Source of the DNA: Escherichia phage LHE287
Sequence record: PP761450.1
DNA: 64,000 nucleotides
Direction: 5' to 3' (one strand)
In this document: positions 12,515 to 41,392 of the stretch, piece after piece
Numbering within the stretch: the stretch's first letter is position 1
Layout of the letters: the number at the start of each line of letters is the position of its first letter
Position numbers and translations under genes: made by a program
Notes under the pieces: model-generated
What the model was told of the DNA's origin: nothing
Databases searched by the model: none
What the model saw: only the letters and a program-made list of their open reading frames with translations

Positions 12515-12520
12515 GAATGA

Positions 12521-12564: not shown

Positions 12565-12578
12565 TTTATTGAATTATT

Positions 12579-13217
12579 TTACGGCGTCAGATTCACAACC
12601 GGAATGTGGGATCGAATACCTGCGATGATGTCCTTCAGCCGAGGATTCCATCCATCCACCAAACGGGGGAGAGCGATAGCGCCAGGCTGGACCAAAATGA
12701 TGTCGCTGCCTGTGATATTGTGCTGAGGGAACTGGGCAAGGTACTGCTCCATGGTGACACCCTCATCAATCAGAACTGCACCGACGTCAGACGATGCGTA
12801 GGTTGCACCCAGGCCGTCAACACCCCATGCCAAGATACCCCAGTCAGGGATGTTAGCTTCAGATGTGATGGTGAATCCAAACACGGTGTTCAGCGAAGTA
12901 AAGGAGTAGACATCGTGGGTGATGTCATACACCAGATACCCCTTGGCCAGCATATCGGCAAAGATCGCGTCCGTATCGCCAGCAGCCGGAGTCGGTACAG
13001 TAAACAACAGCTCGCCATCAGGAGGAGCAGGATACGTGCCGAGGGCATAGAGGCACCATGCGTCAATACACTTCTTGATAAATGCCTCTGGCGCGACATA
13101 ATCAGCAAGGCGAACCGTACCTGAGTACTCTGATACGATAATGCCTTCCTTCGCACCCTGTAGAGCAATGAAGACCAAGATATGTTCATATCCGGCCTGA
13201 GATGGAGTGATGTTCAT
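12579..13217 (-). CDS. hypothetical protein (212 aa)
   Basis: ATG 13217 overlaps upstream stop (TAATG); AAGAGGA SD. Confidence 0.55.
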   Translation of the reverse strand: MNITPSQAGYEHILVFIALQGAKEGIIVSEYSGTVRLADYVAPEAFIKKCIDAWCLYALGTYPAPPDGELLFTVPTPAAGDTDAIFADMLAKGYLVYDITHDVYSFTSLNTVFGFTITSEANIPDWGILAWGVDGLGATYASSDVGAVLIDEGVTMEQYLAQFPQHNITGSDIILVQPGAIALPRLVDGWNPRLKDIIAGIRSHIPVVNLTP

Positions 13218-13831
13218 TATCTTGTCCTCTTCAGTTTCTCTATTGTGTGCTTGTTCATGGCGATCACCTGAGGATCTACCTCGGAGATGGTCCGGCCTTC
13301 GAAAGACACACATTTCTGAAGATATTTAGCTTTCTTCACGACGTCGGCAGCATAAGCGTTCGATGCGGGATTACGGGCGAAGCCAGCATTGTAAGAGGAG
13401 AGGGATTTGCGGATATTCTGATTGTGATAGGTCAGCCAGAACTGCATCTCATCGAGGGCGGCTTGCGCGGCATATTCTTGGTCGGTCAGCAACTTTATGG
13501 CGACATTGGCATAACACTTGCGATTCTTACAACCTTCGCGATCACCAACTGTCTTCACCTTGTTCTGAAAGGCTCCCATGTTGGCCGCCTTGAGGCCGTA
13601 TCGCATTGACACTACATCTTCGCCAGCGCGGCTCTCTCGCCAAGATATGGCGGCCAGCGTGTAGCCAAGATCTTGTGTCTTGCCTACGTGATAGGCGGTT
13701 GCCATCGTATTAAGTTGTTGCTCGGAGAAATTATAAACACATTGACTTGTATTTTGGGAAGCGTGCACATTCCCGCTGGCAATGGTAAAGGTCACGGACA
13801 AGGCCATGGCCTTCAACGTTGTCATCGTCAT
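13217..13831 (-). CDS. secreted protein, possibly lytic-transglycosylase-like
   Basis: N-terminal signal-peptide-like segment MTMTTLKAMALSVTFTIASGNVHAS; ISWRESRAG...MGAFQ loosely resembles SLT ES...GxMQ pattern; AAGGAA SD. Confidence 0.45.
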   Translation of the reverse strand: MTMTTLKAMALSVTFTIASGNVHASQNTSQCVYNFSEQQLNTMATAYHVGKTQDLGYTLAAISWRESRAGEDVVSMRYGLKAANMGAFQNKVKTVGDREGCKNRKCYANVAIKLLTDQEYAAQAALDEMQFWLTYHNQNIRKSLSSYNAGFARNPASNAYAADVVKKAKYLQKCVSFEGRTISEVDPQVIAMNKHTIEKLKRTR

Positions 13832-13886
13832 GATGGCGTTCCTTATGTTTTGTCGACTTGCAGCTCGCTTGAGCCTCCTGACAGGG

Positions 13887-27877: not shown

Positions 27878-30079
27878 TTAGATTTTGATTTCTTTCTCTG
27901 TCAGTTCGGCAGTGACCTTGTACTTCACGCCATCCACTTCAACTTCCATGGTGGACTCTTCCAGGTCGAGGTCGGTGAACCAGCCGTGGCCAGCAACGAT
28001 ACCATACACCACTTTAGACAGTGTCTTGTTCAGGGCACGGACTTCGGTGATGGCCGCCTTGGCAGCAGCGTCGATCCAGTTTTCGATCAGCTGTTTCTGT
28101 AAGGCTTCAGGCACGGCAGTGATCATAGGAGACTTCACGAATGCTTCGTACTCTTTCAGAGCATTGGCGATGAACAAGTCACCAGCATTGAGTTTCTTGT
28201 TCTCTGCGATCTTCTTCTGTACTGCCGCGATGCTCGGTAGTGAAGACGCCCCGGCGATCTTCACGTTCAGCTCACGGCTCATGTAGAAGTCGGTAGACTC
28301 TTTGGTCTCAGTCTTCGGTGAGAAGCCGTAATCGCGGATGCCGTAGGAGGACAGGAACTCGGCCGCCTCAGCGCCGTACTGTACTGCCAGGCCTTTGGCG
28401 TTACCCTTACCAACCAGGGCGTCTCGATAGAACTTCAGCACCTTCTGCTTGCCTTTCAGGGCTTCCAGACGGACATTATCCGCAAAGAACTGAGCAGCAC
28501 TGATGTTCTTGACCATGGCGCGGTTGACCAGCGGTACGCTTTCCAGGTTCAGGACAAACACTTCCGGGCCACCAAACACGTGGACGCCCATTTCGATCAG
28601 CTTCTGTACAACTTCGATATCAGCCTTGAACGGCAGAGTCTTCACGTTAATGATACCGTCTTTGACGATGGTGTAGTTGCGCCACTGGAAAGTATCCAGT
28701 TCTTCAGGCAGGCCAAACTTCTTCTGTGCGAATTCAGGCACAGCCACAGTACCGTGTTGAATTGTACGCACACTGATGTTCGGGCGCTCGGAGTTATAGA
28801 CCAAATCACTGATTGGCACAACACCCAGATCGTTGGTAGGTTCGAACGTCGGGTTCCACTCTTCGTGTTCTGCCAGCTTGAGAGCCAGGGCTTTACGCTC
28901 TTCTTTGGACTGAGCATTCGCGATCTGTTCTGCCAGCTTGTCTTCGGTGTCGTCGGTTTTCTGCACAGTACCGCGCCCGATACTCTTATAGGAGAACATC
29001 GGATGCTTGGTAGCAACAGGTACACCAGCTTCAGCCAGGTACGTCAGCACATCAACGACGGTGGTCGCATCTTCAGCCGGAACCAGGTCATAGTCAATAC
29101 CGTCAACGCCGCGCAGCTGGTCGTCAACAATCGCCTGAACCAGATCGTTCTTGATGTTGGAGTAGTCCTGCTTGGTGAAGCAGTTGCTGTACTGTTTGAT
29201 GAAGCGAACGTCGCCCGTCTTCTTCAGCGCAGCCCAAACCAGATCTGCGTCCATAGTGTGTACACCGTAGAACGCCAGCACGTATGCCGCCTGGATGTCC
29301 GTCAGGCTATCCATCTGGTCGATCATGTTAGGGTTTACAACCCACAGCTTGGTGACGCTCTCAGGGATGCTCACATAGCCGACCGGGTGAGAGTCATCGT
29401 CCTGCACCGCCAGTACTGTTGCCACACCGTTTTCGACGTAGATGGCATGGGTGTAGATGACTGGGACATCAACTTTCACCTTCGGCACTGATGACTTCAG
29501 CACGTTTTCCAGTTCGGTCTGGTATTCGGTCTGACCTTCGGCAAACACATGAGTCGCGCCAGAGCGCTCGGACATCAGAGCCAGCAGTTCGCGGTTACAG
29601 TGCCAGCCGTATTCGATGAAAGTAATGTTATCGAACGCAGAAGGCAAGGTTTCGGCGACGGCCAGGATTTCGTTTGAGCGCCAGCAGTTGTCATAACCAT
29701 CGGTCATGAATGCCAGGTTGTTGACGTAACCAGGTTTCTTCAGGTCACGCGCAGTATCCATCGCCAGTTTCAACGGCTCAACGAAGCCAGTACATCCGGA
29801 CGGTTGCAGGAAGCGATCGATCAGTTTGTTCAGCTCGCTCAGGTCAGACGCAGCACTAACCTGGCGGCCAGCGAACACAGTACCAAAGTCGCCTTTGGAG
29901 GAGAAATACAGAACGCTCACAGTGTCTTCCGGTTTCACCAGGGAAGGCAGGTTCTCCTTCAGATGCTTACGGACTTCAGGGAGCGCACGGTACATAGAGC
30001 CGGAAATGTCTACAACGATTACATGGTTGGACGGGGTAGCAGTCGCAACCGCATTCTTAAATTCTAATGATTCAATCAT
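27878..30079 (-). CDS. large protein with N-terminal von Willebrand factor A domain
   Basis: 733 aa from ATG 30079; MIDAS motif VVDISGSM plus downstream T and D (FMTDGYDN); rest unassigned. Confidence 0.7.
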   Translation of the reverse strand: MIESLEFKNAVATATPSNHVIVVDISGSMYRALPEVRKHLKENLPSLVKPEDTVSVLYFSSKGDFGTVFAGRQVSAASDLSELNKLIDRFLQPSGCTGFVEPLKLAMDTARDLKKPGYVNNLAFMTDGYDNCWRSNEILAVAETLPSAFDNITFIEYGWHCNRELLALMSERSGATHVFAEGQTEYQTELENVLKSSVPKVKVDVPVIYTHAIYVENGVATVLAVQDDDSHPVGYVSIPESVTKLWVVNPNMIDQMDSLTDIQAAYVLAFYGVHTMDADLVWAALKKTGDVRFIKQYSNCFTKQDYSNIKNDLVQAIVDDQLRGVDGIDYDLVPAEDATTVVDVLTYLAEAGVPVATKHPMFSYKSIGRGTVQKTDDTEDKLAEQIANAQSKEERKALALKLAEHEEWNPTFEPTNDLGVVPISDLVYNSERPNISVRTIQHGTVAVPEFAQKKFGLPEELDTFQWRNYTIVKDGIINVKTLPFKADIEVVQKLIEMGVHVFGGPEVFVLNLESVPLVNRAMVKNISAAQFFADNVRLEALKGKQKVLKFYRDALVGKGNAKGLAVQYGAEAAEFLSSYGIRDYGFSPKTETKESTDFYMSRELNVKIAGASSLPSIAAVQKKIAENKKLNAGDLFIANALKEYEAFVKSPMITAVPEALQKQLIENWIDAAAKAAITEVRALNKTLSKVVYGIVAGHGWFTDLDLEESTMEVEVDGVKYKVTAELTEKEIKI

Positions 30080-30287
30080 TGTTCTCTTCGCCTTGTGCGT
30101 AAGGGTTAAGTTCAGACTCATCAGCGGCTTCGATGCGCGTCTTTACAGAGTCCAGCATATTGTTGATAAATTCACGAGACTGCTCCAGCTGAGCCAAGAG
30201 CACATCCTTTGGAGCATAGTTCTGAATGCAAGCCGGAATACTTTCAGACGTCGCCTTCAGGTCGGTAAAACATTCTTTCAGTATCAT
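30072..30287 (-). CDS. hypothetical small acidic protein (71 aa)
   Basis: stop 5 nt before vWA ATG; weak SD. Confidence 0.4.
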   Translation of the reverse strand: MILKECFTDLKATSESIPACIQNYAPKDVLLAQLEQSREFINNMLDSVKTRIEAADESELNPYAQGEENND

Positions 30288-30354
30288 TTGATCTCACTTA
30301 ACAGAGACGACGCCCTGTTGGGATTTAATAGCGGTCTTCACAGGCATCAGGTTT

Positions 30355-30382
30355 CCCTCAAAACAGGGGAGTTGCCTCCCCT
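30355..30382 (-). terminator. rho-independent terminator after prs-nampt operon
   Basis: AGGGGAG-TTGC-CTCCCCT then TGTTTTGAGG on minus strand; same hairpin sequence recurs at 5662-5680. Confidence 0.65.
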
Positions 30383-30389
30383 TCGGTTA

Positions 30390-32054
30390 TCAGATTTGTG
30401 AGGCCAGTTCTGTCACCAGAGGAGCGGCACGAACACGCGCATCTTCCAGTGTTTGAGTATTGAAGAACTCGCCATCACGATACACCAGCTGGTGCTGGTT
30501 GTCGGCGTCTTGCACCTGATCAAAGGTGATACCGTCAACCAACACTAGTTTACCCTGAGAGTCTTTAATGACTTTAAGGAAACCACGCGCAGACTTTTTA
30601 GTCCCGCCTTTATCGGTCTTCGGCTCTTTGAAGATCTCACGGAATTCACCGTTCACTTTACCAGCCGTGGCTTTCACTGCTGTGCCAGTACTGTCACGGG
30701 TGTTCATCTGGTAGGTGTAGGAACCGATACCGAACACCACGTTGATGGAAGCGAAGTTCCGGTCAGCCAGACGGCTAAAGATCTGGTCTTCACGCGCCAG
30801 GGTGATAGAATCACCGTAGATCAGGCCGATGTGCTCATCCAACAGGAAGTGCCCAGTTTCAGTCTGGGTGCCACCAAAGATCTCCCACAGGCGCTGGATA
30901 GAGCCGACCGCTTCTGAACGGCTGATGATATTACGGTCATCTACCATCAGAGAGTTGATCGTGCCTTCGCCTGTGATCAGGTGATAGGTGTTCGTCTCTT
31001 CGATGTGGATAACTTCGGTGCTGCTAGACACGCCGCTGATGTTCAGCGTAGCGCGGTCTTTGAACCCCTCGATGCGGTAGCCGCCAACGATGTGTACAGG
31101 GTCGCCCGAGTCGGGGCGAATCACGACTTTACCATTGCGCGCCATGATAATGTCTTTCAGGCGAGGCAGATAGTCGTCGATGACCTGCCAGTAATCCCAC
31201 GCATCAGACACGATGCTGACGATGCCATCAGGATACACGTCCTGCACCAGGCGGCGGAAGGTTTCGAATTCGCCATCCTTCGTGCCCATACACATCACCG
31301 CATGTTCCGTTGCGGCAACCGACCCAGCAACGACATAGTCTTCGTCGATGTCTGCGCCATAATACTCTTCTACGAAGTCCAGGGCAGGGTTGGTATCGGT
31401 GCCTTTGAAGAACACCAGATGACCGGAACCGGAAGACGCGGCATCATGCCACCCGCTCATACCACGAAAGGAGAAGTCGTGGCCTTGGTAGTCGATGAAC
31501 CAATGGTCCGGTGATACTCCCGTAGCGAGGGCAGCTTTCACCATCAGTGCCTTGTAATGCAAAGCTATGGTGGCGTTCGTCATCGGCTTCCAGATCTCAG
31601 AGCTGAACACAGTCTCCAGATAGTTGGTCAGCCAGTAGAACTCCGGCAGGGTATTGAACATCACATACACCGGAACGCCATACGGGCACATGGTACCTTC
31701 AGGCAGCGCGCGGACTTCGATAGGCAGGTAGCCGAGGTCATGCAGGGCTTCAATATGCTCTGTGCCGACGCGGCCTGGACCCAGGACTTTGTTCATGCGA
31801 CGGGCATACTTCTTCAGCACCTTGGCCTTCGGGCGCTGGAAGAATGCTTCGTCAAACAGTTCGTGGAACCAGGTCATGAAGCCCTGGATGCCCCAGACCA
31901 CCACGCCGTTCTTCGGCAGGTGAGAGTTGAACAGTTTGTTAGAGCGCGGAGTTCCGTTGGAGAACACCAGCTCACTGCCTTCAGGGAACTGATAGATGTG
32001 CCCCGATTTGTAGAAGTCGATCGCATGGATTGGGTCTAAGTGGCGCATGCTCAT
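30390..32054 (-). CDS. nadV: nicotinamide phosphoribosyltransferase family protein (NAMPT/NadV-like; possibly Namat)
   Basis: 554 aa; start ATG overlaps Prs-like stop (ATGA); family call by recognition of length and N-terminal region typical of NAMPT-type enzymes. Confidence 0.8.
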   Translation of the reverse strand: MSMRHLDPIHAIDFYKSGHIYQFPEGSELVFSNGTPRSNKLFNSHLPKNGVVVWGIQGFMTWFHELFDEAFFQRPKAKVLKKYARRMNKVLGPGRVGTEHIEALHDLGYLPIEVRALPEGTMCPYGVPVYVMFNTLPEFYWLTNYLETVFSSEIWKPMTNATIALHYKALMVKAALATGVSPDHWFIDYQGHDFSFRGMSGWHDAASSGSGHLVFFKGTDTNPALDFVEEYYGADIDEDYVVAGSVAATEHAVMCMGTKDGEFETFRRLVQDVYPDGIVSIVSDAWDYWQVIDDYLPRLKDIIMARNGKVVIRPDSGDPVHIVGGYRIEGFKDRATLNISGVSSSTEVIHIEETNTYHLITGEGTINSLMVDDRNIISRSEAVGSIQRLWEIFGGTQTETGHFLLDEHIGLIYGDSITLAREDQIFSRLADRNFASINVVFGIGSYTYQMNTRDSTGTAVKATAGKVNGEFREIFKEPKTDKGGTKKSARGFLKVIKDSQGKLVLVDGITFDQVQDADNQHQLVYRDGEFFNTQTLEDARVRAAPLVTELASQI

Positions 32055-32905
32055 TTTACACGTCCTGTATTTTCAGTTTTGAAAGGGAGCCCGTCGGCGG
32101 TGATGTTCTCCCACCAGACGGTGTCGGCATACACAGCATCATAGATCCCGTCGAAAACAGAGAGACCTTTGCTGAAGATGCCATGGGTAACGAAGAGCGT
32201 CATGTGCTTAGGCTTGTGCTTCTGAAGCTCTTTGCCTAACTCAACGAACGTGCGCCCACCGTCGCAGATATCATCGACCACCACCAGATAGCGGTCTTTG
32301 ATCAGTTCAGGGTTTGTAACACTCACCCCAATGATCTCACCAGTCTTGGTGTCACGGTTCTTGTGACCGTAGACAACAGGAACACCGTCCAACGACAGGC
32401 TGAGGGCTTCGGTCTTCTTAGCCGCGCCGCCGTCAGGGGCTACCAACACAGCGTTGTTCCCACGGATGAACCAGCCCAGATACTGACGCACGATGTAATC
32501 TTGCGGGACAACATGGACGTTGTTGATCAGAGAAGACACAACATGGCTGTGAGGATCTTTGATCGCCACGCGGTCAAAGTTCATGCTATTGATGAACTCA
32601 GCTGCCCACTTCACAGACAGAGGCTCACCGAAGTCACAATGGCGGTCCTGGCGAGCATACGGGAAGTAAGGGATATACGCATGGAATGTCGTCAGACGGT
32701 CCACGTTACCCAGACCACGAACGGCGTTTACCAGAAGCGCCAGCTCAATGAAGTCAGCCGATGATTTGATGTGAGCATCAATCGCCACGTTCTGAACGTG
32801 GCCGATAGGGATACCAGACTTTTGAATCTTGATATGTTCCTCACCACCTGGGAAGGTGAAGTGTTTGTAGAACACATCTTGGTCGTTCAATTTCAAACGA
32901 AACAT
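32051..32905 (-). CDS. prs: ribose-phosphate pyrophosphokinase family protein (Prs-like; possibly ADPR-PP synthetase)
   Basis: 284 aa; PYFPYARQDRH, KDPHSHVV, VAPDGGAAKK and PRTase loop VVVDDICDGGRT align with E. coli Prs; GAGG SD. Confidence 0.85.
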   Translation of the reverse strand: MFRLKLNDQDVFYKHFTFPGGEEHIKIQKSGIPIGHVQNVAIDAHIKSSADFIELALLVNAVRGLGNVDRLTTFHAYIPYFPYARQDRHCDFGEPLSVKWAAEFINSMNFDRVAIKDPHSHVVSSLINNVHVVPQDYIVRQYLGWFIRGNNAVLVAPDGGAAKKTEALSLSLDGVPVVYGHKNRDTKTGEIIGVSVTNPELIKDRYLVVVDDICDGGRTFVELGKELQKHKPKHMTLFVTHGIFSKGLSVFDGIYDAVYADTVWWENITADGLPFKTENTGRVK

Positions 32906-33013
32906 AATGTAGCCTCATGGTGTATTGTACAGCCGTATTATACTGTGATGCACAAATTGAAACGCCCAGCATTTACGCTGGACGTTATTGATATTGAAAA
33001 GGTTTTGACAAAC

Positions 33014-33247
33014 TCAGGATTTGGAGGAAGCGCCCTTCCATGTCTGACGTTTGTAGTAGGAAGCCATGGCCATCGACCCGGCGTATTGCGTTTCACCCCT
33101 GACTACCACAGCCACAACCAGCTTATGTCGCAACAGGAAGTCCAGACCTGACTTAGACGGGATATCGCCAATGCTCAGTGGACCACGATTGTACAGGGCA
33201 TACATGGTGTCAAGCGCCGCCCCGGTAAAGATAATCTCTTTAGACAT
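33014..33247 (-). CDS. hypothetical small protein (78 aa)
   Basis: start at MSKEIIFTG; same MSKEI N-terminus as neighbouring gene. Confidence 0.4.
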   Translation of the reverse strand: MSKEIIFTGAALDTMYALYNRGPLSIGDIPSKSGLDFLLRHKLVVAVVVRGETQYAGSMAMASYYKRQTWKGASSKS

Positions 33248-33254
33248 GGCGGTC

Positions 33255-33560
33255 TCACTTAAACGAGTCAACGATGGATGTAAGAATTTCGGGGGTGGGT
33301 TTGGCGTCTTGTGGTTCACGGAAACCCACCTTTGCGATGCGACCCAATACATTGTACACTTCGCGCGGAAGGGTGTCTACGACCGTGTCCGACATGAACA
33401 CCACGTCTTCTTGGATGGCGTTGTATTCGGCCAGTTTAGCCAGTTCTGATTCTACCAGGGACTTCAGCTTTTGCAATGGGTCGTTGCAATAGTTGAGACG
33501 GTTACAGTTGGTGAGCGCCTGAGTTAGATTCTCAAACGCTTCTTGTATTTCCTTTGACAT
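33255..33560 (-). CDS. hypothetical small protein (101 aa)
   Basis: ATG 33560 with GAGG SD (track start 33593 is TTG). Confidence 0.4.
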   Translation of the reverse strand: MSKEIQEAFENLTQALTNCNRLNYCNDPLQKLKSLVESELAKLAEYNAIQEDVVFMSDTVVDTLPREVYNVLGRIAKVGFREPQDAKPTPEILTSIVDSFK

Positions 33561-33942
33561 TGATATGTGCCTCGTATTGTTGACAGACAACAACTACTTT
33601 ACGGCACATGTCGATATCGAACAAGCCAATATGACACTCACGCTTCTTTATCCCCAGCTTATGCGCCAGCCAACTGTAAGCGTCGCTCCTGCTCCTCTCT
33701 CCGCTTTTCCACAATGGGTCAAACGATCTATGGGCTTCCTGCTTAGCAGCACGGAGAGCGGCATTCGCCATCCTTCCCAAAGGTTGTCTGCCGTCGCCAT
33801 GGGCATGGCAACCGACACGGGCATCACATGGAGTGCACACCCAGAACTTCAGATTGCGGAGGTCAGGGCGATGAGGGTAGAGAACATCACCACCGACGAA
33901 TTCGGCTGGGAGGCCACAGTAATCACATATAACAGGTTTCAT
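33532..33942 (-). CDS. zinc-ribbon protein (CxxC...CxxC, HIGLFD motif)
   Basis: start at MKPVICDYCG; Cys pairs CDYC, CTPC. Confidence 0.45.
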   Translation of the reverse strand: MKPVICDYCGLPAEFVGGDVLYPHRPDLRNLKFWVCTPCDARVGCHAHGDGRQPLGRMANAALRAAKQEAHRSFDPLWKSGERSRSDAYSWLAHKLGIKKRECHIGLFDIDMCRKVVVVCQQYEAHINVKGNTRSV

Positions 33943-34002
33943 ATTCTTTGTCCAAAAGAAACCCCGCACATGGCGGGGTTGCTCAGGCTGAGGTCAGACA
34001 GA

Positions 34003-34374
34003 TTATTTCAGGAGTGCTTCCAGTTCTTCAACAGATTTGCTTTCCAGCTCTTGCTGTTTCTTACGCTGGATCAGCTCCAGGATAATCTGGTTGTTCGCCT
34101 TACGCTCTGCCGCGTCTCTGCTGTCGTCACGTTCTTTCAGCTTAACACCGATGATGTGCTTGACAACGTCGAAGCGCAGCTGCAGTTCGGAGTCAACGTT
34201 GCTTTTGGTGCCAATGAAATCTTCTTCATCGGTTTCTGCTGCTTTCACCTGACGGCTCAGACCTTTCGCCATTTCGTTCAGGGCAGTCAGGCTCAGGTCC
34301 CAGACCTGCTCAACAGACAGCAGACCTTTGTTAGACTCGAAGCGCAGTTTCATACGGGTTGCTTTATCAAACAT
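34003..34374 (-). CDS. hypothetical protein (123 aa), charged helical
   Basis: ORF only. Confidence 0.5.
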   Translation of the reverse strand: MFDKATRMKLRFESNKGLLSVEQVWDLSLTALNEMAKGLSRQVKAAETDEEDFIGTKSNVDSELQLRFDVVKHIIGVKLKERDDSRDAAERKANNQIILELIQRKKQQELESKSVEELEALLK

Positions 34375-34418
34375 TTTACTATCCTCAATGATGAATGGGT
34401 TACAATTTCAAATCAGGT

Positions 34419-36437
34419 TTAGAACACAACTTTCACAGTGCGGTTGAACGAACCGCTCACCTTCACGAACACGTGGTTGCGTTGGGTGGTAGAGAAGCCC
34501 AGACCGGACAGCTGCTCAGTGCTTGGCTGTACTTTAATCTTACCACCTAACATTTCAAAAACCTTGCGGTGTTTATCAAGTTCCGGCTTCAGATATTCGT
34601 TATAGAAACCACGGGTGCCGACAGGGTTAGCACAACCTTCCAGGATGAAGAACACGTGCTTGTTGCCAGTCTGCTCGCCGTCCCAATGGTTTGGTGAGTT
34701 CAGAACCAGCTGTACCTTCTGGAAGACGGAGGTCTTGATGCCCCAGATTTCCTGAGAGCGAGCGTCGTCTTTCAGGGTAGAACTGATGTCAACCACCTGA
34801 CCAGCGCGAACCTGAACCACAACAGCCAACGTGCGATCTTTGTTACCCAGGCCAGGGTGTGAGAAGCGCTTAGTCTGACCTTTGTATTCAACTTCGATTT
34901 CGAAACCAACGTCACAGGTTTCACGCTTGTTGAAGTTGGTGACATAGAACTCATAATTCCCGTCACGCAACTTGCGTTCATCGCTAAAGAAGATGTTCTC
35001 CACCGGACGGCGGTTTGGATCAATGCCGTCCATACCGTTCATGTCGATGTCCAGAGTTGCGCCAGTTGTCGAACGACGGTTGCGAAAATATACGTGGTTG
35101 TGAAGAGGATCGTTCATGCTCAGATCCAGGTCGTCGTTGTTATGCCAAGCCAGTGACACGCGGAGGAAGCTGTCGACATTGCCGCCTGCGGTCTTCACGC
35201 GCTCTTTGATGGAGTCGGCCACTTCGCCATTGTACGACCAGCTGAAGCCGTTGTTCCACTTGAACAGGTTAGGAGCGCCTGCGGTAGCCGGAGCGATCAG
35301 GGACATCAGGTTGCCAATGTGAGAGTTTTCGACCAGCACTTCCAGGGAATGCGCCTTTGGCAACACGTTGGTCAGGAAGTCGTCGATCGTGATCTCTTCA
35401 ACCTTGTCCAGGGACTTGGTCGGAGTCTTCACTTCAGACGCCAGCTGAGCAAACGGGTCCATCTTCTTCTGAGCTGCCAGATCGGCGAACAGAACGTTGT
35501 TGATGGTCAGATCGTCATACACGGCATAACGGCGACCCAGTGAATCGGTCAGACCCAGCGCTTCGACTTCTTTCTGCGCGTTTTCAATCATCGACTTCGT
35601 GACCAGCGCGGTTGGGCGCTTGTAGTTCGTCGGAGCGACTTTGGCTTCAAAGGACTTCACGGCGGTTTCCAGATCCCGGCCTTCATTGAGGTCTACCAGC
35701 AGAGAGCCAATCACGGTATTACGAATGCCGTGAGGGGTATGACCGTTTGCACGGTAGCCAGTGCGCCAAGCCCACAGAGCGCGTTTCTCTTCTGCAGTTT
35801 GTTCGTACAGGGTCTTGTTCACCACGAACGCCTGCACTGCCGCTTTGTGCTCTTCACCGCGATACAGAGAATTCTGGTCAATCAATTCCAGAACGATTTC
35901 AGCCGATTCCAGAGACAGTTCACGCAGGCCGCGCTCAAACACTTCAATCGCCTGGCGGATTTCACCCTTCTTAGAAGCGATGGTATCTGCCCGCAGAACA
36001 TAGCTGCCCAGCAGGTCGGTGTGGAAGTGGTTGTAGGTACGGACAATACCATCTTTCATTTCGTGATTCGACTCAACACCAACTTTCTTGGTGTCGTTGA
36101 AGTACACGTCGACGATTGCGTGCTGCTTAACATATGCTGACAGCGCCGCAGCGACAACGTCGTATTCGTTACCCAGCTGAATGTTATCCCAGATAGAGAT
36201 CACGTTCAGATCGGAGTCGATGGTGACTACACCGCCGATGTTACGGATGAATTGTTTGCAGCAGGTGCAGTCGTGCTCGGTACGCTCACGATAAAGCGGG
36301 TTAGTGCCAGCAGGGAAAGAAGACAGATACAGATCCCACAGAGCATCTTTATCGATGTTGGTCATGAACAGACCAGTTGCTGACATGGCCAGCACGTTAT
36401 TGTTGACAGCTACTGCGAAGGGCTTAAAATCTGACAT
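34419..36437 (-). CDS. large hypothetical protein (672 aa)
   Basis: no P-loop or polymerase motif; CTCC and His-rich segments; function unknown. Confidence 0.6.
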   Translation of the reverse strand: MSDFKPFAVAVNNNVLAMSATGLFMTNIDKDALWDLYLSSFPAGTNPLYRERTEHDCTCCKQFIRNIGGVVTIDSDLNVISIWDNIQLGNEYDVVAAALSAYVKQHAIVDVYFNDTKKVGVESNHEMKDGIVRTYNHFHTDLLGSYVLRADTIASKKGEIRQAIEVFERGLRELSLESAEIVLELIDQNSLYRGEEHKAAVQAFVVNKTLYEQTAEEKRALWAWRTGYRANGHTPHGIRNTVIGSLLVDLNEGRDLETAVKSFEAKVAPTNYKRPTALVTKSMIENAQKEVEALGLTDSLGRRYAVYDDLTINNVLFADLAAQKKMDPFAQLASEVKTPTKSLDKVEEITIDDFLTNVLPKAHSLEVLVENSHIGNLMSLIAPATAGAPNLFKWNNGFSWSYNGEVADSIKERVKTAGGNVDSFLRVSLAWHNNDDLDLSMNDPLHNHVYFRNRRSTTGATLDIDMNGMDGIDPNRRPVENIFFSDERKLRDGNYEFYVTNFNKRETCDVGFEIEVEYKGQTKRFSHPGLGNKDRTLAVVVQVRAGQVVDISSTLKDDARSQEIWGIKTSVFQKVQLVLNSPNHWDGEQTGNKHVFFILEGCANPVGTRGFYNEYLKPELDKHRKVFEMLGGKIKVQPSTEQLSGLGFSTTQRNHVFVKVSGSFNRTVKVVF

Positions 36438-36551
36438 GATGTAATCTTCCTGTTTCAGTTCAAATGTGCGCCCCGTTTGCTAGGGCGCTTCGTTTAAGTG
36501 AGGTCAATATACGCTGGATTGAGTTATTGAAGAACGAAGTAAAGGAAATCT

Positions 36552-37775
36552 TTATTCAGGTTTCTTCAAACGGTCCAGCAAATTGACGGAACCACGTTTG
36601 AGAACGACTTCATCACAGCGCTTTTTGTATTCCCCACCGCCGTCATAGCTGACCTTGCCCCGAGGTTTTTCACCGCGCCCAACCGCCTCAACACAGCGAG
36701 TGTACTTGCTCAGTTCACAGAACATGTTCTCCAGCTGCATAACGTTCATGCACTGATCTACAGGCTCTTCAGCCGACCAGAATTGCTCACGAACATACCC
36801 ATATTGGGAATACACCGCGTCCTGATTGTCCCGCAACCAGAAGATGCATTCTTCATGCGTCATGCCATCTTTGTCCTGGAACATCAGATCAATCCCTGCG
36901 CGACAGCCTGGTCCAGCAACCGTGAAGTGGTTCTCACTGAAAGGATATCCAGGAATGTACGTGAAATCAACCCAGATCTGGTAGGCCAGGAATGGACCAA
37001 GCCCTTCGATGTCGTCATACATGCGCTGGTATACTTCCAGAGGAGTACCAAGGCGCAGCAAGTCATGGAAATAGTTTGGATACTTGTTGACGAATGCCTT
37101 CAGGGAGCGGATGACACGCATTGGCATGTACGGTTCCCATCCCTCGATGGTATATTCACCAGGATTCTCTTCGACCAGCTTCTTGGCGACCTTGTAGTCC
37201 ATCTCTTCCACAATACCCTGGCCAACACGATACACTTTCACCATCATCCCACCGAAGCGCTGCTCCTTGTGGTTGACAACCATCTCAGGGAAAGCCAGGC
37301 ATTGTTTCAGGCCGCCCGTGTTGAAGGCATTGGTGAATACCTTACCACCGTCGGCCTCGAACTTCTGAAGTCGTTCGCGGGTTGCATCGAGGTTGATCTC
37401 GGCGAATTCTTTGATCGTCATCGCGCCGCCGATAGCCTGGATTGGATCCCAGAGGTTGAACATGCGGAACAACACGCAGTTGAACATCTTGTCGGCCATA
37501 CCCAGAGCATCATTCTTGGCGATGTTGTTGATCAGGTTGAGAGACTGCCTGTCGTGCTCTCTCCGGACGTTACAGAATTTAACCTGGCGTAATATGGGAT
37601 TATCAGTCCAAGGAGCAGGAAGGCGCTGGACGTCCTTCTTGACGTGGATCTGATAACGATCGCGCATCCATTCGTAAGACAGGCAGGTATGGGTCGGACT
37701 GAGAACCGGTTTGGCCGACTTTATCTTTTCTTCACGGACACCGCAGTACGGGACGTCCAGGGCTTTATCTTTCAT
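36552..37775 (-). CDS. hypothetical protein (407 aa)
   Basis: no nucleotide-binding motif recognised. Confidence 0.6.
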   Translation of the reverse strand: MKDKALDVPYCGVREEKIKSAKPVLSPTHTCLSYEWMRDRYQIHVKKDVQRLPAPWTDNPILRQVKFCNVRREHDRQSLNLINNIAKNDALGMADKMFNCVLFRMFNLWDPIQAIGGAMTIKEFAEINLDATRERLQKFEADGGKVFTNAFNTGGLKQCLAFPEMVVNHKEQRFGGMMVKVYRVGQGIVEEMDYKVAKKLVEENPGEYTIEGWEPYMPMRVIRSLKAFVNKYPNYFHDLLRLGTPLEVYQRMYDDIEGLGPFLAYQIWVDFTYIPGYPFSENHFTVAGPGCRAGIDLMFQDKDGMTHEECIFWLRDNQDAVYSQYGYVREQFWSAEEPVDQCMNVMQLENMFCELSKYTRCVEAVGRGEKPRGKVSYDGGGEYKKRCDEVVLKRGSVNLLDRLKKPE

Positions 37776-37843
37776 GGTATCCTCTTAGAATACGAAAACA
37801 GAGGCCATTATAGCCTCTGTTGTTTAGTGAATAACTGTATATC

Positions 37844-38716
37844 TTAATCGATACGGGTCAGTTGGGTGATAGATGATTGCACTGGGCTGGCCACATAGAT
37901 ACGGACGTTGGCTTTCCATTCACCCCAGATCAACGGCAGAGTTGGGAAGTTGTCTTCATTGAAAACAAACACGGGAATGTAGCTCTCGACTGTTTCGCCA
38001 GAGAACGCCTGAAAGCCCATCTTGGTGTATCCCATGATCTCGTCAATAAAATCGAACGGAGCGAAGGCAACACCAGCGTGTTCGTTGCATCCGAGCTGGC
38101 CTGGAGTGGCCGTACCTGTCAGAATGATTTCGGTGATCTGGCGCTTAGGCTCGGCGGTCAACATATCAGAGAAGTCAGGCTCTTTGAAGGTTGCCATGTT
38201 CTTCAGGAACTTGCCAGCCGGGTACTCTTTGCCGTCGACAGTGATGGTGTCTACCACTTTGATGCACGCCTGAGGGAATTCCCCTTCGATGCGCAGACTT
38301 TCGCGTGGGAAGCCTTTGTTGTAGTAGTAATCCAGTGCTGGCACAACTTCACCTTCATTACGGATGAACTTGCTCATGTTAGAGGCATACACGCGCTGTA
38401 GACATTCGTCACCGTCGAAACCAGCAATATGAGCCACACCGTCGTTGACTGTTGTGATGTCGCCCTGGGCATCCATGATCTGGCGCATAATGTCTTTGAT
38501 GTCGACAACAACGGGTTCTTTCAGGACTCGCGGAGATGCGGTGAACTCAATTTTCACCTCGTGGTCGAAATACGCCGCTTCCAGCAGTTCACGGGTTTCT
38601 TCCAGCACCAGTTTCGCCTGATTGCGGATCTTACCAAAGTCGGGCGATGTGACGTCGCCCTTTGCATTACCGAAAGCCAGATTCAGATTCACGTTCTTGG
38701 AAAATGTAGTTGTCAT
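37844..38716 (-). CDS. hypothetical protein (290 aa), possibly all-alpha NTP pyrophosphohydrolase-like
   Basis: N-terminal acidic helical pattern (KLVLEETRELLEAAYFDHE ... DIKDIMRQIMDAQGD) loosely MazG/dCTPase-like; weak. Confidence 0.5.
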   Translation of the reverse strand: MTTTFSKNVNLNLAFGNAKGDVTSPDFGKIRNQAKLVLEETRELLEAAYFDHEVKIEFTASPRVLKEPVVVDIKDIMRQIMDAQGDITTVNDGVAHIAGFDGDECLQRVYASNMSKFIRNEGEVVPALDYYYNKGFPRESLRIEGEFPQACIKVVDTITVDGKEYPAGKFLKNMATFKEPDFSDMLTAEPKRQITEIILTGTATPGQLGCNEHAGVAFAPFDFIDEIMGYTKMGFQAFSGETVESYIPVFVFNEDNFPTLPLIWGEWKANVRIYVASPVQSSITQLTRID

Positions 38717-38732
38717 GATTTAGCGACTCCAG

Positions 38733-39197
38733 TTATTCGCTTTTTGCCTTCGTAGGCCGGATGATGTATTTTGGAACCAGTTTCCATTCAGGAACCTGAT
38801 CGTGTTTAACCACTTTAATGCGAGACATATCGGCTGCTTCAGTGACCTGCTCAGGATGAATGACCTTCACCATGTTCCACTGCTCCAGCAGCTTGATGAT
38901 TCGGTTCATCCTCAGGACATCTTCGCGGTTAAATCCGTTGTAATGCCCGTCCAGCATAAATAGATGCTTAAAGTGGACGATATAATACTTGCCACACTTA
39001 TGAAGAATATGGCAAGTCTGATACAGAGTATTCGGCTCTTGGCGCGTGTTTACCCCAATTCGACTCAGTGTTTCCTTGATCCCCAGGAATATACCTGGCC
39101 GATCTTGGTTCAATTGAACTTCAACCATACAATCAACGATGCTGGCCTCATCGTTGACTGCTGAAATATTCAATATGTCTAGCGTATTACGCGCCAT
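38733..39197 (-). CDS. regA: translational repressor RegA
   Basis: YQTCHILHKCGKYYIVHFKHLF and EWKLVPKYIIRP resemble T4 RegA (YQSCHILQKKGLYYIVHFKEM, EWKLVPKYTIGN); first ATG has AAGGGGA SD, internal start at 39128 is alternative. Confidence 0.75.
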   Translation of the reverse strand: MARNTLDILNISAVNDEASIVDCMVEVQLNQDRPGIFLGIKETLSRIGVNTRQEPNTLYQTCHILHKCGKYYIVHFKHLFMLDGHYNGFNREDVLRMNRIIKLLEQWNMVKVIHPEQVTEAADMSRIKVVKHDQVPEWKLVPKYIIRPTKAKSE

Positions 39198-39226
39198 GAC
39201 TCATTCCCCTTTTACAATAGTTTGAA

Positions 39227-39649
39227 CTATTTAGCCTTGCGCGGTTTCGCTTTGGCGTTCAGCTCAGTGCGTCTCATCTTCTCGCGTATCTCGGCCAGGA
39301 CTTCCTTCGGCAAGAAACGGACGTACTCCGATGCCTTCTCCATGCTGATGTAGAAGTACTCGGAGAGTAACTTCACGTCAGGATCAATCGGACCTTTCTT
39401 AGACCATTTGTCGTAGCGTTTCCGAGCCGGAATGGTGTAAAAGGCATATGACCATTGCATCCATGGAGTGATAGCATGTAGCTTATTCATCTGTTGTGCA
39501 GCCACTAGTGTGTCTTTGCTCTGAGCTAAACCACGCCGCGTCATAAACGGGTCGAATCCTTTCAACACTTCTGGGTCATCAGACCGCAAAAGGTTTTCTT
39601 TGCTGCTGTTCAGAGCAGCCAGGTAATCGAACAATCCAAGGGCGGCCAT
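39227..39649 (-). CDS. gp62: clamp-loader small subunit (T4 gp62-like)
   Basis: AFYTIPARKRYDKWSKK vs T4 gp62 AVPRGKRYGKWAK; follows gp44 as in T4. Confidence 0.65.
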   Translation of the reverse strand: MAALGLFDYLAALNSSKENLLRSDDPEVLKGFDPFMTRRGLAQSKDTLVAAQQMNKLHAITPWMQWSYAFYTIPARKRYDKWSKKGPIDPDVKLLSEYFYISMEKASEYVRFLPKEVLAEIREKMRRTELNAKAKPRKAK

Positions 39650-39653
39650 AATA

Positions 39654-40643
39654 TCACTTCCACTTGATGTTGAGCATGACATTGGTCAGGAAAAACACAG
39701 CATGCAGCCAGACATCGCCGACTTGACGGTGTTCAATCTGAGACTGACCACACACGCATACCAGATCAGGGATAGACTCATTCTGAACCAACATTTGCTT
39801 CTCTTTATCCTGTGGTACACAGAACTGGAAGAAGCGGGAATAGAAGTCTTCAGTGATATAGTTCTGGTTGTCGGTCACCCACTGCTTCATCCCAGCCCAG
39901 TCATTATCCTTCAACATATTCACCAACATGCCCATATCGGCCGATTTTAACACAGCCAGTGCACGTTCGTCGATCTTGCCGTAAGTGGTGACGTTATCCT
40001 GTAGAACACCCATGATGCGGCGGTTATCAGGGAAATGGCGCTTGACAATAGCAGCCAACACAGGAGGGTCATACTCAACACCTTCGCAGCGAAGGATTTC
40101 AGCACAGCGGCGCATGAACTGAAGTTTTACCTCATCAGCCTCAGCCTCATTCCAGATAAAGTCGATTTCACGGCAACGAGAGCGCAGAGGTTCGTTCACA
40201 CGTTGCTTGGCGTTGGTGGTCAAGATGAATGAACAGTTCTTGGAGACCTTCTCCACAATACCCTTCAGCGACTCCTGTGCCGCCATAGACAGACGCTCTA
40301 CTTCGTCGAGGATAACGACTTTGCGGCCACCGAATACGCTCACACCAGTAGAGTACTGAATCACGCGGTCACGGATAACGTCAATGCTGTTGTCCAGGGA
40401 TGCGTTGATCATCAGTGGTTGCTTACAACCGATTTCATTACACACGGCCAGGGCAGAGGTAGTCTTGCCAGTACCAGGCTGAGGAGAGTAGAACAGCATA
40501 GACGGGATGTTGCCGTTGCCGCTGGTGATGTAGCCATGGATTTTAGCGCGGACGTCTTGAGGGATGATAATCTCGTCCAGGTTGTCAGGGCGATACTTGT
40601 TTTCCCATGCGTACTGGTCGGAAACGATAGTGATATTAGACAT
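39654..40643 (-). CDS. gp44: clamp-loader ATPase (T4 gp44-like)
   Basis: ENKYRPDNLDEIIIPQ, P-loop YSPQPGTGKTT, SRC motif; C-terminus IKWK vs T4 MQWK; start ATG 40643 with GAGG SD. Confidence 0.85.
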   Translation of the reverse strand: MSNITIVSDQYAWENKYRPDNLDEIIIPQDVRAKIHGYITSGNGNIPSMLFYSPQPGTGKTTSALAVCNEIGCKQPLMINASLDNSIDVIRDRVIQYSTGVSVFGGRKVVILDEVERLSMAAQESLKGIVEKVSKNCSFILTTNAKQRVNEPLRSRCREIDFIWNEAEADEVKLQFMRRCAEILRCEGVEYDPPVLAAIVKRHFPDNRRIMGVLQDNVTTYGKIDERALAVLKSADMGMLVNMLKDNDWAGMKQWVTDNQNYITEDFYSRFFQFCVPQDKEKQMLVQNESIPDLVCVCGQSQIEHRQVGDVWLHAVFFLTNVMLNIKWK

Positions 40644-40723
40644 TTCAGCCTCGTGTAGAAGAATCATTTCAAATAGGCGGGGAACGCCCCGCCCACACAT
40701 TATAGCATCAGGCTGGAGATTGA

Positions 40724-41392
40724 TTACTCAATCTGTGCGCCGACGAAGTAATTGATCGTCGCGTCGGATGATTGGAAGTTCACCATCTGTAGATCAGCAC
40801 AGGCACGCAGAGTGTAGTTGCCTTCGATCATTTTCAGGTTGGCAACATCCAGTGGCATTACGAAGTCCGGCAGCGCGGTTTCGCCCAGCTCAACAGTGTA
40901 GTTGTTGGAGTTGTCTAGGGTAGTGGTGGTTGCAACCAGGCGTGTTTTGCCACCCTGAGCAACCAGACGCACAGTCTTGTGTCCGAGGGTAGAGCAGGCG
41001 CGGGTCAGTTCTTTCATCTTCTCTGGAGTGATGATCGCTTCAAAGTCAACAGACGGCAGTTCAATAGTATCAGCCGGAACAACAGTGAGTTCTTTAGCAG
41101 AACGCCAGAATTGCAGCTGAGAGCTTTCGCCTTTCAACAGGATGTAGTCCTGATGAAATTCGGCTTTGGCACCTTTGAAGGAAGGTAGGCGCTGGATGGC
41201 CAGAAGTTTGGTCAGGTCCAGAATCGGGAACTCAAACGGGAAGTCTTCTTCGATCTGCGCCACGGCGATCACAGTAGAAGAATCATTAATACTGCGCAGC
41301 ATCTTGCCTGGTGTCAGAACGATAGATGGGTTGATGGTCTCAAAGTTGGCCAGCAACTGAAGTGTACGTTCGGAGAGAGTGATCTCTTGCAT
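40724..41392 (-). CDS. gp45: sliding clamp (T4 gp45-like)
   Basis: 222 aa; LQLLANFETINPSIVL vs T4 gp45 TALLKNFATINSGIML; GAGGA SD. Confidence 0.85.
   Translation of the reverse strand: MQEITLSERTLQLLANFETINPSIVLTPGKMLRSINDSSTVIAVAQIEEDFPFEFPILDLTKLLAIQRLPSFKGAKAEFHQDYILLKGESSQLQFWRSAKELTVVPADTIELPSVDFEAIITPEKMKELTRACSTLGHKTVRLVAQGGKTRLVATTTTLDNSNNYTVELGETALPDFVMPLDVANLKMIEGNYTLRACADLQMVNFQSSDATINYFVGAQIE

What the first reader, a model, noticed from the sequence alone, without database searches (positions are those of the whole stretch)
34419..38716. Three large unassigned proteins in the position where T4 carries DNA polymerase, upstream of regA
regA-gp62-gp44-gp45 synteny is T4-like, but the three ORFs 5' of regA (290, 407 and 672 aa) show no polymerase or 3'-5' exonuclease motifs and no P-loops. 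The 290-aa protein begins with an acidic helical EExxE-type pattern weakly reminiscent of all-alpha NTP pyrophosphohydrolases (MazG/dCTPase). Such enzymes accompany DNA base modification in T-even and other phages, so this block may be nucleotide or DNA modification machinery; that is inference only.
Basis: inference. Interest (0 to 1): 0.5.

Follow-up and report, generated by a model that had tools for sequence, protein, structure and literature searches.

The report
Known phage thymidine-modification genes plus unrelated module
The three genes after regA in this ViI-like (Ackermannviridae) phage are a MazG-type nucleotide pyrophosphatase, the orthologue of ViI gp160 from the thymidine-hypermodification gene set, and an unrelated widespread phage protein of unknown function; all three are already in public records.

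Summary
The three ORFs exist exactly as described. None has a polymerase domain, an exonuclease domain or a P-loop. The window is an Agtrevirus (Ackermannviridae) phage, about 98% identical to Escherichia phage vB_EcoM-ZQ1. In this family the DNA polymerase lies elsewhere in the genome.

- **290 aa:** an all-alpha MazG/PRA-PH-type NTP pyrophosphohydrolase with invariant E40, E43, D82 and D86. Its closest solved relatives are DR2231 and 3nl9. It carries a lineage-specific C-terminal domain. Its substrate is unknown.
- **407 aa:** matches Pfam PF18723 (HMUDK_hel, formerly aGPT-Pplase clade 1). It is 87% identical to ViI gp160, one of the five ViI proteins used to reconstitute 5-NeOmdU. The published minimal pathway does not include it.
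- **672 aa:** belongs to DUF8224 and is not part of that pathway. In 77 of 80 diverse viral contigs it pairs with a roughly 125-aa partner (here 34003-34374). It usually sits among replication genes, has a TerD-like beta-sandwich, and has decayed in a Dickeya phage.

Nothing here is new as a gene. The functions of gp160-type proteins and of DUF8224 remain open.

The parts
37844..38716 (-). 290-aa MazG-like protein. The N-terminal domain (about residues 1-190) is an all-alpha NTP pyrophosphohydrolase. The C-terminal domain (about residues 190-290) is lineage-specific and of unknown fold.
36552..37775 (-). 407-aa stand-alone HMUDK_hel / aGPT-Pplase clade 1 protein, the orthologue of Salmonella phage ViI gp160.
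   Evidence: Pfam PF18723, E 2.6e-81, 273.5 bits against a cut-off of 25, covering residues 32-364. It is 87% identical over all 407 residues to Vi01_130c, whose note reads orf00160. The orf numbering equals the gp numbering of Lee et al., checked for gp226, gp243 and gp247 (PMC8989533 Table 1). It has no Walker A motif. Some records annotate the orthologue as 'Pplase1' (PMC10458263).
34419..36437 (-). 672-aa DUF8224 protein with several domains, including a TerD-like beta-sandwich at roughly residues 420-560. Function unknown.
34003..34374 (-).
   Evidence: A homologue is found next to the DUF8224 gene in 77 of 80 IMG/VR loci. In most it lies 9-100 nt downstream, and in two it lies immediately upstream. 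The same pairing is seen in two further metagenomic contexts. PHROG 2018, unknown function. No informative Pfam or PDB hit.
33532..33969 (-). 145-aa DUF3268 zinc-finger protein, a frequent third gene after the DUF8224 pair.
   Evidence: Pfam DUF3268, E 2.6e-37. tblastn finds it in 17 of the sampled loci. A further DUF3268 cluster follows the partner gene in 11 other loci.
38733..39197 (-). regA translational repressor, the upstream neighbour that anchors the T4-like synteny.
   Evidence: Pfam Translat_reg, E 2.1e-34.
37797..37821 (-). Terminator-like hairpin (11-bp stem followed by a T-rich tail) between the 290-aa and 407-aa genes.
   Evidence: Found by the pattern scan and visible in the sequence. 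The number of such sites in the region is no higher than in shuffled sequence, so this is only a hint.

Best explanation
The block is a composite of two unrelated units, not one machine.

Unit 1 is the 290-aa and 407-aa genes. It is conserved after regA in all 16 enterobacterial Ackermannviridae loci sampled. It belongs to the nucleotide and DNA modification biology of ViI-like phages, which replace about 40% of thymidine with 5-(2-aminoethoxy)methyl-dU.

The 407-aa protein is the stand-alone form of the helical domain (predicted by Iyer/Aravind and by Lee et al. 2018 to be HhH-glycosylase-like). In SP10-like Bacillus phages this domain is fused to the C-terminus of the 5-hmdU DNA kinase. I infer that it binds 5-hmdU DNA and works with the kinases (orthologues of ViI gp67 and gp243). 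It could raise the yield of phosphorylation, choose which sites are phosphorylated, or decide the fate of 5-phosphomethyl-dU. It is not the amino-acid transferase itself.

The 290-aa protein hydrolyses a nucleoside triphosphate to the monophosphate plus pyrophosphate, using the Mg-binding residues E40/E43 and D82/D86. Its substrate is not known. A pyrimidine dNTP such as dUTP or dTTP is the leading guess.

Unit 2 is the 672-aa DUF8224 gene plus the 123-aa gene downstream. It is an accessory two-gene module found in many large virulent phages, usually within replication gene clusters. Its biochemical function is unknown. It contains a TerD-like beta-sandwich that may bind calcium.

Shown here: family assignments, orthology, synteny and co-occurrence. 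Inferred: every biochemical role.
For: **Identity of the phage.** The finding region (window 34000-39300) is 97% identical to phage ZQ1, and window-wide blastn blocks are 96-99% identical.

**The rest of the pathway.** ZQ1 carries orthologues of ViI gp67 (88%), the ThyA-like dUMP hydroxymethylase (77%), gp226 PLP decarboxylase (91%), gp243 (47%), gp247 (89%) and the DNA polymerase. All of these lie outside the window. The paper on the close relative SW16-7 lists the same set (PMC10458263).

**407-aa protein.**
- PF18723 at 2.6e-81.
- 87% identity to ViI gp160, which was one of five lysates sufficient to make 5-NeOmdU (PMC5889632).
- A kinase plus HMUDK_hel fusion was verified in Bacillus phage Goe26: a 636-aa protein with PF18748 at residues 35-193 and PF18723 at residues 312-597, next to a thyA-like gene. 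SP10 gp186 has the same arrangement (PMC5889632 Table 3).

**290-aa protein.** Evidence, as listed under parts.

**Conserved position.** regA, MazG-like and Pplase1 are adjacent in all 16 Ackermannviridae loci. The arrangement survives in Dickeya phage RC-2014, where DUF8224 has decayed. In the Acinetobacter Ackermannviridae phage 15599, the gene after the regA-like gene is the characterised Pplase2 (PMC13458397).

**DUF8224 module.**
- 77 of 80 loci have the partner gene adjacent.
- Neighbours in other phages are ATP-dependent DNA ligase, family A DNA polymerase, DnaB-like helicase and DUF3268.
- 557 phage records across many families carry a homologue.
Against: **407-aa protein.**
- Lee et al. 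2021 describe the 5-NeOmdU pathway with the kinase, gp247 and gp226 only, and gp160 is absent from their table of characterised proteins. In phage M6 the other paralogue, gp55, was dispensable for the transfer step (PMC8989533). So no activity of the 407-aa family has ever been demonstrated.
- The SP10 kinase domain alone is active, so the helical domain is not required for phosphorylation as such.

**290-aa protein.**
- ViI-like phages also carry a dUTPase_2-family protein (ViI orf00063) inside the hydroxymethylase, dNMP-kinase and gp67 cluster. That is the same Pfam family as the proven dTTPase/dUTPase of phage 15599. The thymidine-exclusion role may therefore already be filled.
- The N-terminal domain of the 290-aa protein occurs at 50% identity in N4-like phages where no Pplase1 homologue was seen. 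In Klebsiella phage FBKp27 it is a lone gene beside tRNAs.
- Profile comparison with 15599 gp18 found nothing.

**DUF8224.** The TerD similarity is at fold level only. No active site can be named.
Confidence: 0.65

Rival explanations
1. All three proteins form one thymidine or DNA-modification pathway, and the 672-aa protein supplies a missing step.
For: The three genes are adjacent and co-oriented, and this order is conserved in all 16 enterobacterial Ackermannviridae loci sampled.
Against: DUF8224 homologues occur in 557 phage records of unrelated families. In 64 non-Ackermannviridae loci they are never adjacent to MazG or Pplase1 homologues. The gene is fragmented in Dickeya phage RC-2014 while MazG and Pplase1 stay intact. 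It is annotated as two genes in ViI itself. Its constant companion is the 123-aa gene, not the modification genes.
Confidence: 0.05
2. The 290-aa MazG-like enzyme is the phage dTTPase/dUTPase. It empties the dTTP pool so that 5-hmdUTP is incorporated, and it feeds dUMP to the hydroxymethylase. This would be analogous to phage 15599 gp18 and to the dTTPase induced by phiW-14.
Against: A dUTPase_2 protein of the same Pfam family as gp18 already sits in the hydroxymethylase cluster of ViI and ZQ1. No detectable homology to gp18 was found. The N-terminal domain is present in N4-like phages where no Pplase1 homologue was seen.
Confidence: 0.3
3. The 407-aa gp160-type protein is an enzyme in its own right and acts on 5-phosphomethyl-dU in DNA. 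It could, for example, convert it to thymidine, which would explain why only about 40% of T positions end up hypermodified.
For: Two glycosylase-like paralogues (listed as aG/PT-PPlase1 and aG/PT-PPlase2) are present in three of the four classic hypermodifying phages, and SP10 carries one as the C-terminal part of gp186 (PMC5889632 Table 3). Lee et al. state that the way 5-hmdU becomes thymidine in these phages is unknown. The clade 2 enzyme makes T when given borohydride in place of the amino acid (PMC8989533). The 407-aa family has an invariant adjacent C353-E354 pair and an invariant C291, which recalls the essential Cys/Glu of clade 2.
Against: No cofactor-binding domain or source of reductant is evident. 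Clade 1 and clade 2 could not be aligned, so the equivalence of the Cys-Glu pair is untested. No activity has been reported.
Confidence: 0.12
4. DUF8224 is a DNA-directed RNA polymerase or a protease, as a few GenBank and RefSeq records annotate it.
Against: No Pfam, NCBIfam or PDB sequence match to any polymerase or protease. The top structural matches are TerD beta-sandwiches. PHROG lists the family as unknown function.
Confidence: 0.03

Closest known systems
Salmonella phage ViI (Vi01) gp160 (Vi01_130c, YP_004327501), called aG/PT-PPlase1 by Lee et al. 2018
   Same: 87% identical over all 407 residues. It has the same position between the MazG-like gene and the DUF8224 gene downstream of regA, and the same Pfam family PF18723.
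   Different: No meaningful difference. It is the orthologue. The function of gp160 itself has not been established (PMC8989533).
SP10 gp186 and Bacillus phage Goe26 636-aa protein (5-hmdU DNA kinase fused to the HMUDK_hel domain)
   Same: They share the PF18723 helical domain and the genomic association with a ThyA-like dUMP hydroxymethylase.
   Different: Here the domain stands alone, with no kinase domain and no Walker A motif. The kinases are separate genes elsewhere in the genome. Identity to Goe26 is only about 22%.
Amino acid:DNA transferases (aGPT-Pplase clade 2, PF18724 ADDT): ViI gp247, M6 gp51, PaMx11 gp46, 15599 Pplase2
   Same: They belong to the same pathway. The literature treats them as distant paralogues with a predicted HhH-glycosylase-like fold.
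   Different: There is no Pfam cross-hit, and hhalign finds no alignment to gp247 or to 15599 Pplase2. The 407-aa protein is therefore not a member of that family.
DR2231 of Deinococcus radiodurans (PDB 2yeu) and Exig_1061 (PDB 3nl9), all-alpha MazG-like NTP pyrophosphohydrolases
   Different: The 290-aa protein has an extra C-terminal domain of about 100 residues, aligned only in the top three of 150 listed representatives. It does not reach any Pfam threshold directly. Its substrate is unknown.
Acinetobacter phage SH-Ab 15599 gp18, a dTTPase/dUTPase (PMC13458397)
   Same: It is an all-alpha NTP pyrophosphatase encoded by an Ackermannviridae phage with a 5-hmdU-based hypermodification pathway.
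   Different: It belongs to a different family (dUTPase_2), and no alignment to the 290-aa family was found. Its same-family (dUTPase_2) counterpart in ViI-like phages is orf00063, not the 290-aa protein.
TerD tellurite-resistance proteins (PDB 2kxt, 2qz7)
   Different: There is no sequence-profile relationship. DUF8224 is four times larger than TerD, with additional N-terminal and C-terminal domains of unknown function.

Membership tests
All-alpha NTP pyrophosphohydrolase superfamily (MazG / PRA-PH / dimeric dUTPase), for the 290-aa protein | Acidic metal-binding motifs on the helices of the bundle (EExxE followed by a second [ED]xx(x)D motif) | tested here: met
   E39-E40-x-x-E43 and D82-x-x-x-D86 are present. 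E40, E43, D82 and D86 are invariant in 60 homologues that fall to 23% identity.
All-alpha NTP pyrophosphohydrolase superfamily (MazG / PRA-PH / dimeric dUTPase), for the 290-aa protein | Significant profile or structural match to characterised members | tested here: met
All-alpha NTP pyrophosphohydrolase superfamily (MazG / PRA-PH / dimeric dUTPase), for the 290-aa protein | Hydrolysis of an NTP to NMP plus PPi, and the identity of the substrate | not testable with these tools
   This needs an enzyme assay.
aGPT-Pplase clade 1 / HMUDK_hel (PF18723), for the 407-aa protein | Pfam match above the gathering threshold over the whole domain | tested here: met
   273.5 bits against a cut-off of 25. 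Residues 32-364 cover profile positions 6-278 of 281.
aGPT-Pplase clade 1 / HMUDK_hel (PF18723), for the 407-aa protein | Same genome also encodes 5-hmdU DNA kinase, dUMP hydroxymethylase and the clade 2 transferase | tested here: met
   These genes are not in the window. They are present in ZQ1, which is 96-99% identical to the window over the aligned blocks, and in SW16-7 (PMC10458263).
aGPT-Pplase clade 1 / HMUDK_hel (PF18723), for the 407-aa protein | Biochemical activity on 5-hmdU or 5-PmdU DNA | not testable with these tools
   No activity is established even for ViI gp160 (PMC8989533).
Amino acid:DNA transferase (PF18724 ADDT, aGPT-Pplase clade 2), for the 407-aa protein | Profile match to PF18724, or alignability with ViI gp247 or 15599 Pplase2 | tested here: not met
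   No PF18724 hit at E up to 0.1. hhalign probability is below 1% against gp247 and against 15599 Pplase2. gp247 itself hits PF18724 at 3e-58.
5-hmdU DNA kinase (PF18748, P-loop), for the 407-aa protein | P-loop kinase domain with a Walker A motif | tested here: not met
   No Walker A motif and no PF18748 hit. Despite the Pfam name, the protein holds only the helical domain.
T4 gp43-type family B DNA polymerase, for any of the three proteins | Polymerase or 3'-5' exonuclease domains | tested here: not met
   No such Pfam, NCBIfam or PHROG hits. The gp43 orthologue lies at ZQ1 17.2-21.4 kb and ViI 145-148 kb.
DUF8224 (PF26675), for the 672-aa protein | Profile match to the family | tested here: met
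   PF26675 is precomputed on a 100%-identical database protein and on nearly all (119) of the 120 listed homologues. The local Pfam copy lacks this model. PHROG 1735 matches at E 0 over the full length.
TerD family (PF02342), for residues about 420-560 of the 672-aa protein | Sequence-profile membership | tested here: not met
   No TerD hit from the 65 full-length members, from the 22 excised domains, or from profile searches of PDB.
TerD family (PF02342), for residues about 420-560 of the 672-aa protein | TerD beta-sandwich fold | tested here: met

The most novel reading that the evidence does not exclude
The stand-alone HMUDK_hel protein (the gp160 orthologue) could be the missing enzyme or specificity factor that decides the fate of 5-hmdU in DNA. 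It might direct the kinase to particular sites, or convert 5-phosphomethyl-dU to thymidine. Either role would explain the roughly 40:60 mix of hypermodified and plain T. It would also address an old question from phiW-14 and SP10: how thymine arises from 5-hmdU at the polymer level. Separately, the DUF8224 plus partner pair may be an undescribed kind of accessory module in large virulent phages.
Probability: 0.15. Interest if true: 0.7.

Novelty: already known. Interest (0 to 1): 0.25.

Why it matters
As a sequence feature this is ordinary. The genes are 87-99% identical to deposited proteins of ViI-like phages, and the pathway they touch has been dissected biochemically. Two points have some value.

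- **Separation of functions.** The analysis splits the block cleanly into a modification-linked pair and an unrelated module, and corrects stray public annotations such as 'RNA polymerase', 'terminase small subunit' and 'ABC transporter'.
- **Two conserved proteins with no known activity.** One is the gp160-type helical protein. Its fusion to the 5-hmdU DNA kinase in Bacillus phages makes a testable case that it partners the kinase. The other is DUF8224 with its small partner. This pair is widespread: more than 5,000 database proteins (about 50% identical to the query among the 120 best-scoring, found in unrelated phages).

Tried and rejected
**Searches that gave nothing useful**
- The afdb50 library was unavailable.
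- phmmer of each of the three proteins against PDB found nothing.
- Profiles of the 407-aa family (A3), of DUF8224 (A1) and of its beta-sandwich region (A5) against PDB found nothing.
- hhalign of the MazG-like family against 15599 gp18 gave no alignment.
- hhalign of the 407-aa family against ViI gp247 and against 15599 Pplase2 gave no alignment. I therefore could not test whether C353-E354 corresponds to the catalytic Cys/Glu of clade 2.
- NCBIfam found nothing for the three proteins.
- A literature search for DUF8224, HMUDK_hel and Pplase1 found no functional study.

**Weak or chance hits I set aside**
- The partner-protein profile hit only a 27-residue stretch of an 82-aa PDB 'conserved hypothetical protein' (1puz), which I recall to be SdhE/YgfY-like, at E 0.5. 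Its Pfam hits were scattered. I treat these as chance.
- DUF2135 and GOLD hits in the DUF8224 beta-sandwich were weak (best E about 0.003-0.005, 5 of 22 members) and not interpretable.

**Ideas tested and rejected**
- I asked whether the 747-aa vWA protein or the NAD-salvage genes belong with DUF8224. They co-occur only within Ackermannviridae.
- I considered that the three genes replace a lost polymerase. The polymerase is intact elsewhere in the genome.

Full report
**What is there.** The minus strand carries, in the direction of transcription:

| Gene | Coordinates |
|---|---|
| gp45 | 40724-41392 |
| gp44 | 39654-40700 |
| gp62 | 39227-39682 |
| regA | 38733-39197 |
| 290-aa ORF | 37844-38716 |
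| 407-aa ORF | 36552-37775 |
| 672-aa ORF | 34419-36437 |

regA, gp62 and gp44 are confirmed by Pfam. The gp45 ORF has no Pfam hit and is named from the relatives' annotation. All three ORFs start with ATG behind a Shine-Dalgarno-like sequence. None has a Walker A motif or any polymerase or exonuclease domain.

**Which phage.** The region is 97% identical to Escherichia phage vB_EcoM-ZQ1. It is 92-96% identical to other Agtrevirus phages such as Ag3, MK-13 and SW16-7, within 282 related Ackermannviridae records. Across the window, blastn blocks are 96-99% identical to ZQ1.

In this family the gp43 DNA polymerase is not next to regA. In ViI it sits at 145-148 kb, directly upstream of gp243 and gp247. 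In ZQ1 it sits at 17-21 kb. The 'polymerase position' is therefore just a rearranged gene order.

**The 290-aa protein.** PHROG 2144 ('MazG-like pyrophosphatase') matches over the full length at E 5e-133, but Pfam gives no direct hit.

An exhaustive search of 1.84 billion representatives found 235 relatives. Nearly all share only residues 1-190. In an alignment of 60 of them, E40, E43, D82, D86, K169 and K172 are invariant. Of these 60, 23 hit PRA-PH, 12 hit MazG-like and 10 hit MazG.

The C-terminal 100 residues are aligned only in the top three representatives and are poorly modelled.

The substrate cannot be assigned. The attractive idea is a dTTPase/dUTPase, as shown for phage 15599 gp18 (PMC13458397). 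Three facts weaken it:
- ViI-like phages carry a dUTPase_2 protein of the same Pfam family as gp18 inside the hydroxymethylase and kinase cluster.
- No homology between the 290-aa family and gp18 was detected.
- The N-terminal domain occurs at about 50% identity in N4-like phages where no Pplase1 homologue was seen.

**The 407-aa protein.** Pfam PF18723 matches at 2.6e-81. This family is now called 'HMUDK_hel, 5-hmdU DNA kinase helical domain' and was formerly aGPT-Pplase clade 1. The protein is 87% identical over its whole length to ViI Vi01_130c.

gp160 was one of five ViI lysates that together converted 5-hmdU DNA to 5-NeOmdU (PMC5889632). The later dissection assigns the steps to the kinase (gp67 or gp243), the serine:DNA transferase gp247 and the PLP decarboxylase gp226. 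It leaves gp160 without a role (PMC8989533).

The 407-aa protein is neither a kinase nor a clade 2 transferase. It has no P-loop, no PF18748 hit and no PF18724 hit, and hhalign finds no alignment to gp247 or to 15599 Pplase2.

The best functional lead is a domain fusion. In Bacillus phage Goe26 a 636-aa protein joins the kinase domain (PF18748, residues 35-193) to this helical domain (PF18723, residues 312-597), next to a thyA-like gene. SP10 gp186 has the same arrangement. I therefore infer that the stand-alone protein works with the 5-hmdU DNA kinases on DNA.

Invariant residues include K66, F67, N69, R71, R72, D75, R76, the stretch T148-N152, G288-P-G-C291, and E349, N350, C353, E354.

**Context of the first two genes.**
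- regA, MazG-like and Pplase1 are adjacent in all 16 Ackermannviridae loci sampled.
- The arrangement survives in Dickeya phage RC-2014.
- In a Vibrio member the MazG-like N-terminal domain still follows regA.
- In Acinetobacter phage 15599 the gene after the regA-like gene is the characterised diamine:DNA transferase.
- The rest of the ViI pathway is present in ZQ1 outside the window, and the paper on the close relative SW16-7 reports the same set.

**The 672-aa protein.** It belongs to PHROG 1735 and to Pfam DUF8224 (PF26675). The family has more than 5,000 database members. Members from unrelated large phages are still about 50% identical to the query. Those phages include Vequintavirinae-like Klebsiella phages, Caulobacter phiCbK, Bacillus cereus myophages, N4-like Vibrio phages and Microcystis phages.

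In 77 of 80 IMG/VR loci a homologue of the 123-aa ORF at 34003-34374 lies next to it. A DUF3268 zinc-finger gene, here at 33532-33969, often follows. Other recurrent neighbours are DNA ligase, family A DNA polymerase and DnaB-like helicase. MazG and Pplase1 homologues appear only in the 16 Ackermannviridae loci.

The gene is fragmented in Dickeya phage RC-2014, beside an inserted GIY-YIG endonuclease. It is annotated as two genes in ViI. It is therefore dispensable in some lineages. Its function is unknown, and it is not part of the thymidine pathway.

**Verdict.** Everything here is already present in public records, and most of it is annotated, so novelty is low. The open questions are what gp160-type proteins do and what the DUF8224 pair does. 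Both are real questions, but they are not specific to this window.

Noticed in passing
window 30390-32905 (-), within the insert at about 30083-33785: A PRPP-synthetase-like gene (284 aa) overlaps by 4 nt with a NAMPT-like gene (554 aa; NF006629, 1e-141). The pair fits the phage NAD+ reconstitution pathway NARP1 (Adps plus Namat). The roughly 3.7-kb stretch that holds it is absent from the closest relative ZQ1, so it is a variable accessory island. Dickeya phage RC-2014 keeps only a NAMPT remnant.
   Followed up: partly
window 34003-34374 (-) and 33532-33969 (-): The 123-aa gene is an almost obligatory neighbour of DUF8224 across phage diversity (77 of 80 loci). A DUF3268 zinc-finger gene is a frequent third member. 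The N-terminus of the partner (KLRFxxxKGxLxVEDLWDL) weakly resembles the N-terminus of PDB 1puz, an 82-aa 'conserved hypothetical protein' that I recall to be SdhE/YgfY-like (27 residues, E 0.5). This is probably chance.
   Followed up: partly
window 27878-30121 (-): A 747-aa protein has an N-terminal vWA domain (Pfam VWA, 4e-7) and a long uncharacterised remainder (PHROG 2426). It is conserved in all 16 Ackermannviridae loci sampled but does not accompany DUF8224 elsewhere. Function unknown.
   Followed up: partly
window 36552-37775 (-): The 407-aa gene is locally mosaic. It is only 91.6% identical in protein to ZQ1, whereas the two flanking proteins are about 99% identical to ZQ1. It is closer to Shigella phage ChubbyThor (95.8%). 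It is also closer to ViI gp160 (87%) than the ZQ1 orthologue is (82%). This suggests recombination within this gene.
   Followed up: no
L094 (Dickeya phage RC-2014) 3605-5449; L002 (ViI) 11301-13320: In RC-2014 the DUF8224 gene is broken into three small ORFs, next to an inserted 261-aa GIY-YIG (SegE-like) endonuclease gene. In ViI it is annotated as two ORFs. This could be real decay or a sequencing frameshift, and I did not resolve which.
   Followed up: partly
window 37797-37821 (-) and about 36458-36478 (-): GC-rich hairpins lie in the intergenic gaps after the 290-aa gene and after the 407-aa gene. The first has 11 bp and a T-rich tail. The second is GCGCCC...GGGCGC with no T run. They may be attenuators or RNA-stability elements. 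The number of such sites is no higher than in shuffled sequence.
   Followed up: no
L092 (ViI) 11056-13866; ZQ1 64.5-67.2 kb: ViI-like phages hold a compact cluster of dUTPase_2 (orf63), dNMP kinase, ThyA-like hydroxymethylase and the 5-hmdU DNA kinase gp67. The dUTPase_2 protein is in the same Pfam family as the proven dTTPase/dUTPase of phage 15599. RefSeq mislabels gp67 as 'terminase small subunit' and gp243 as 'guanylate kinase'.
   Followed up: partly
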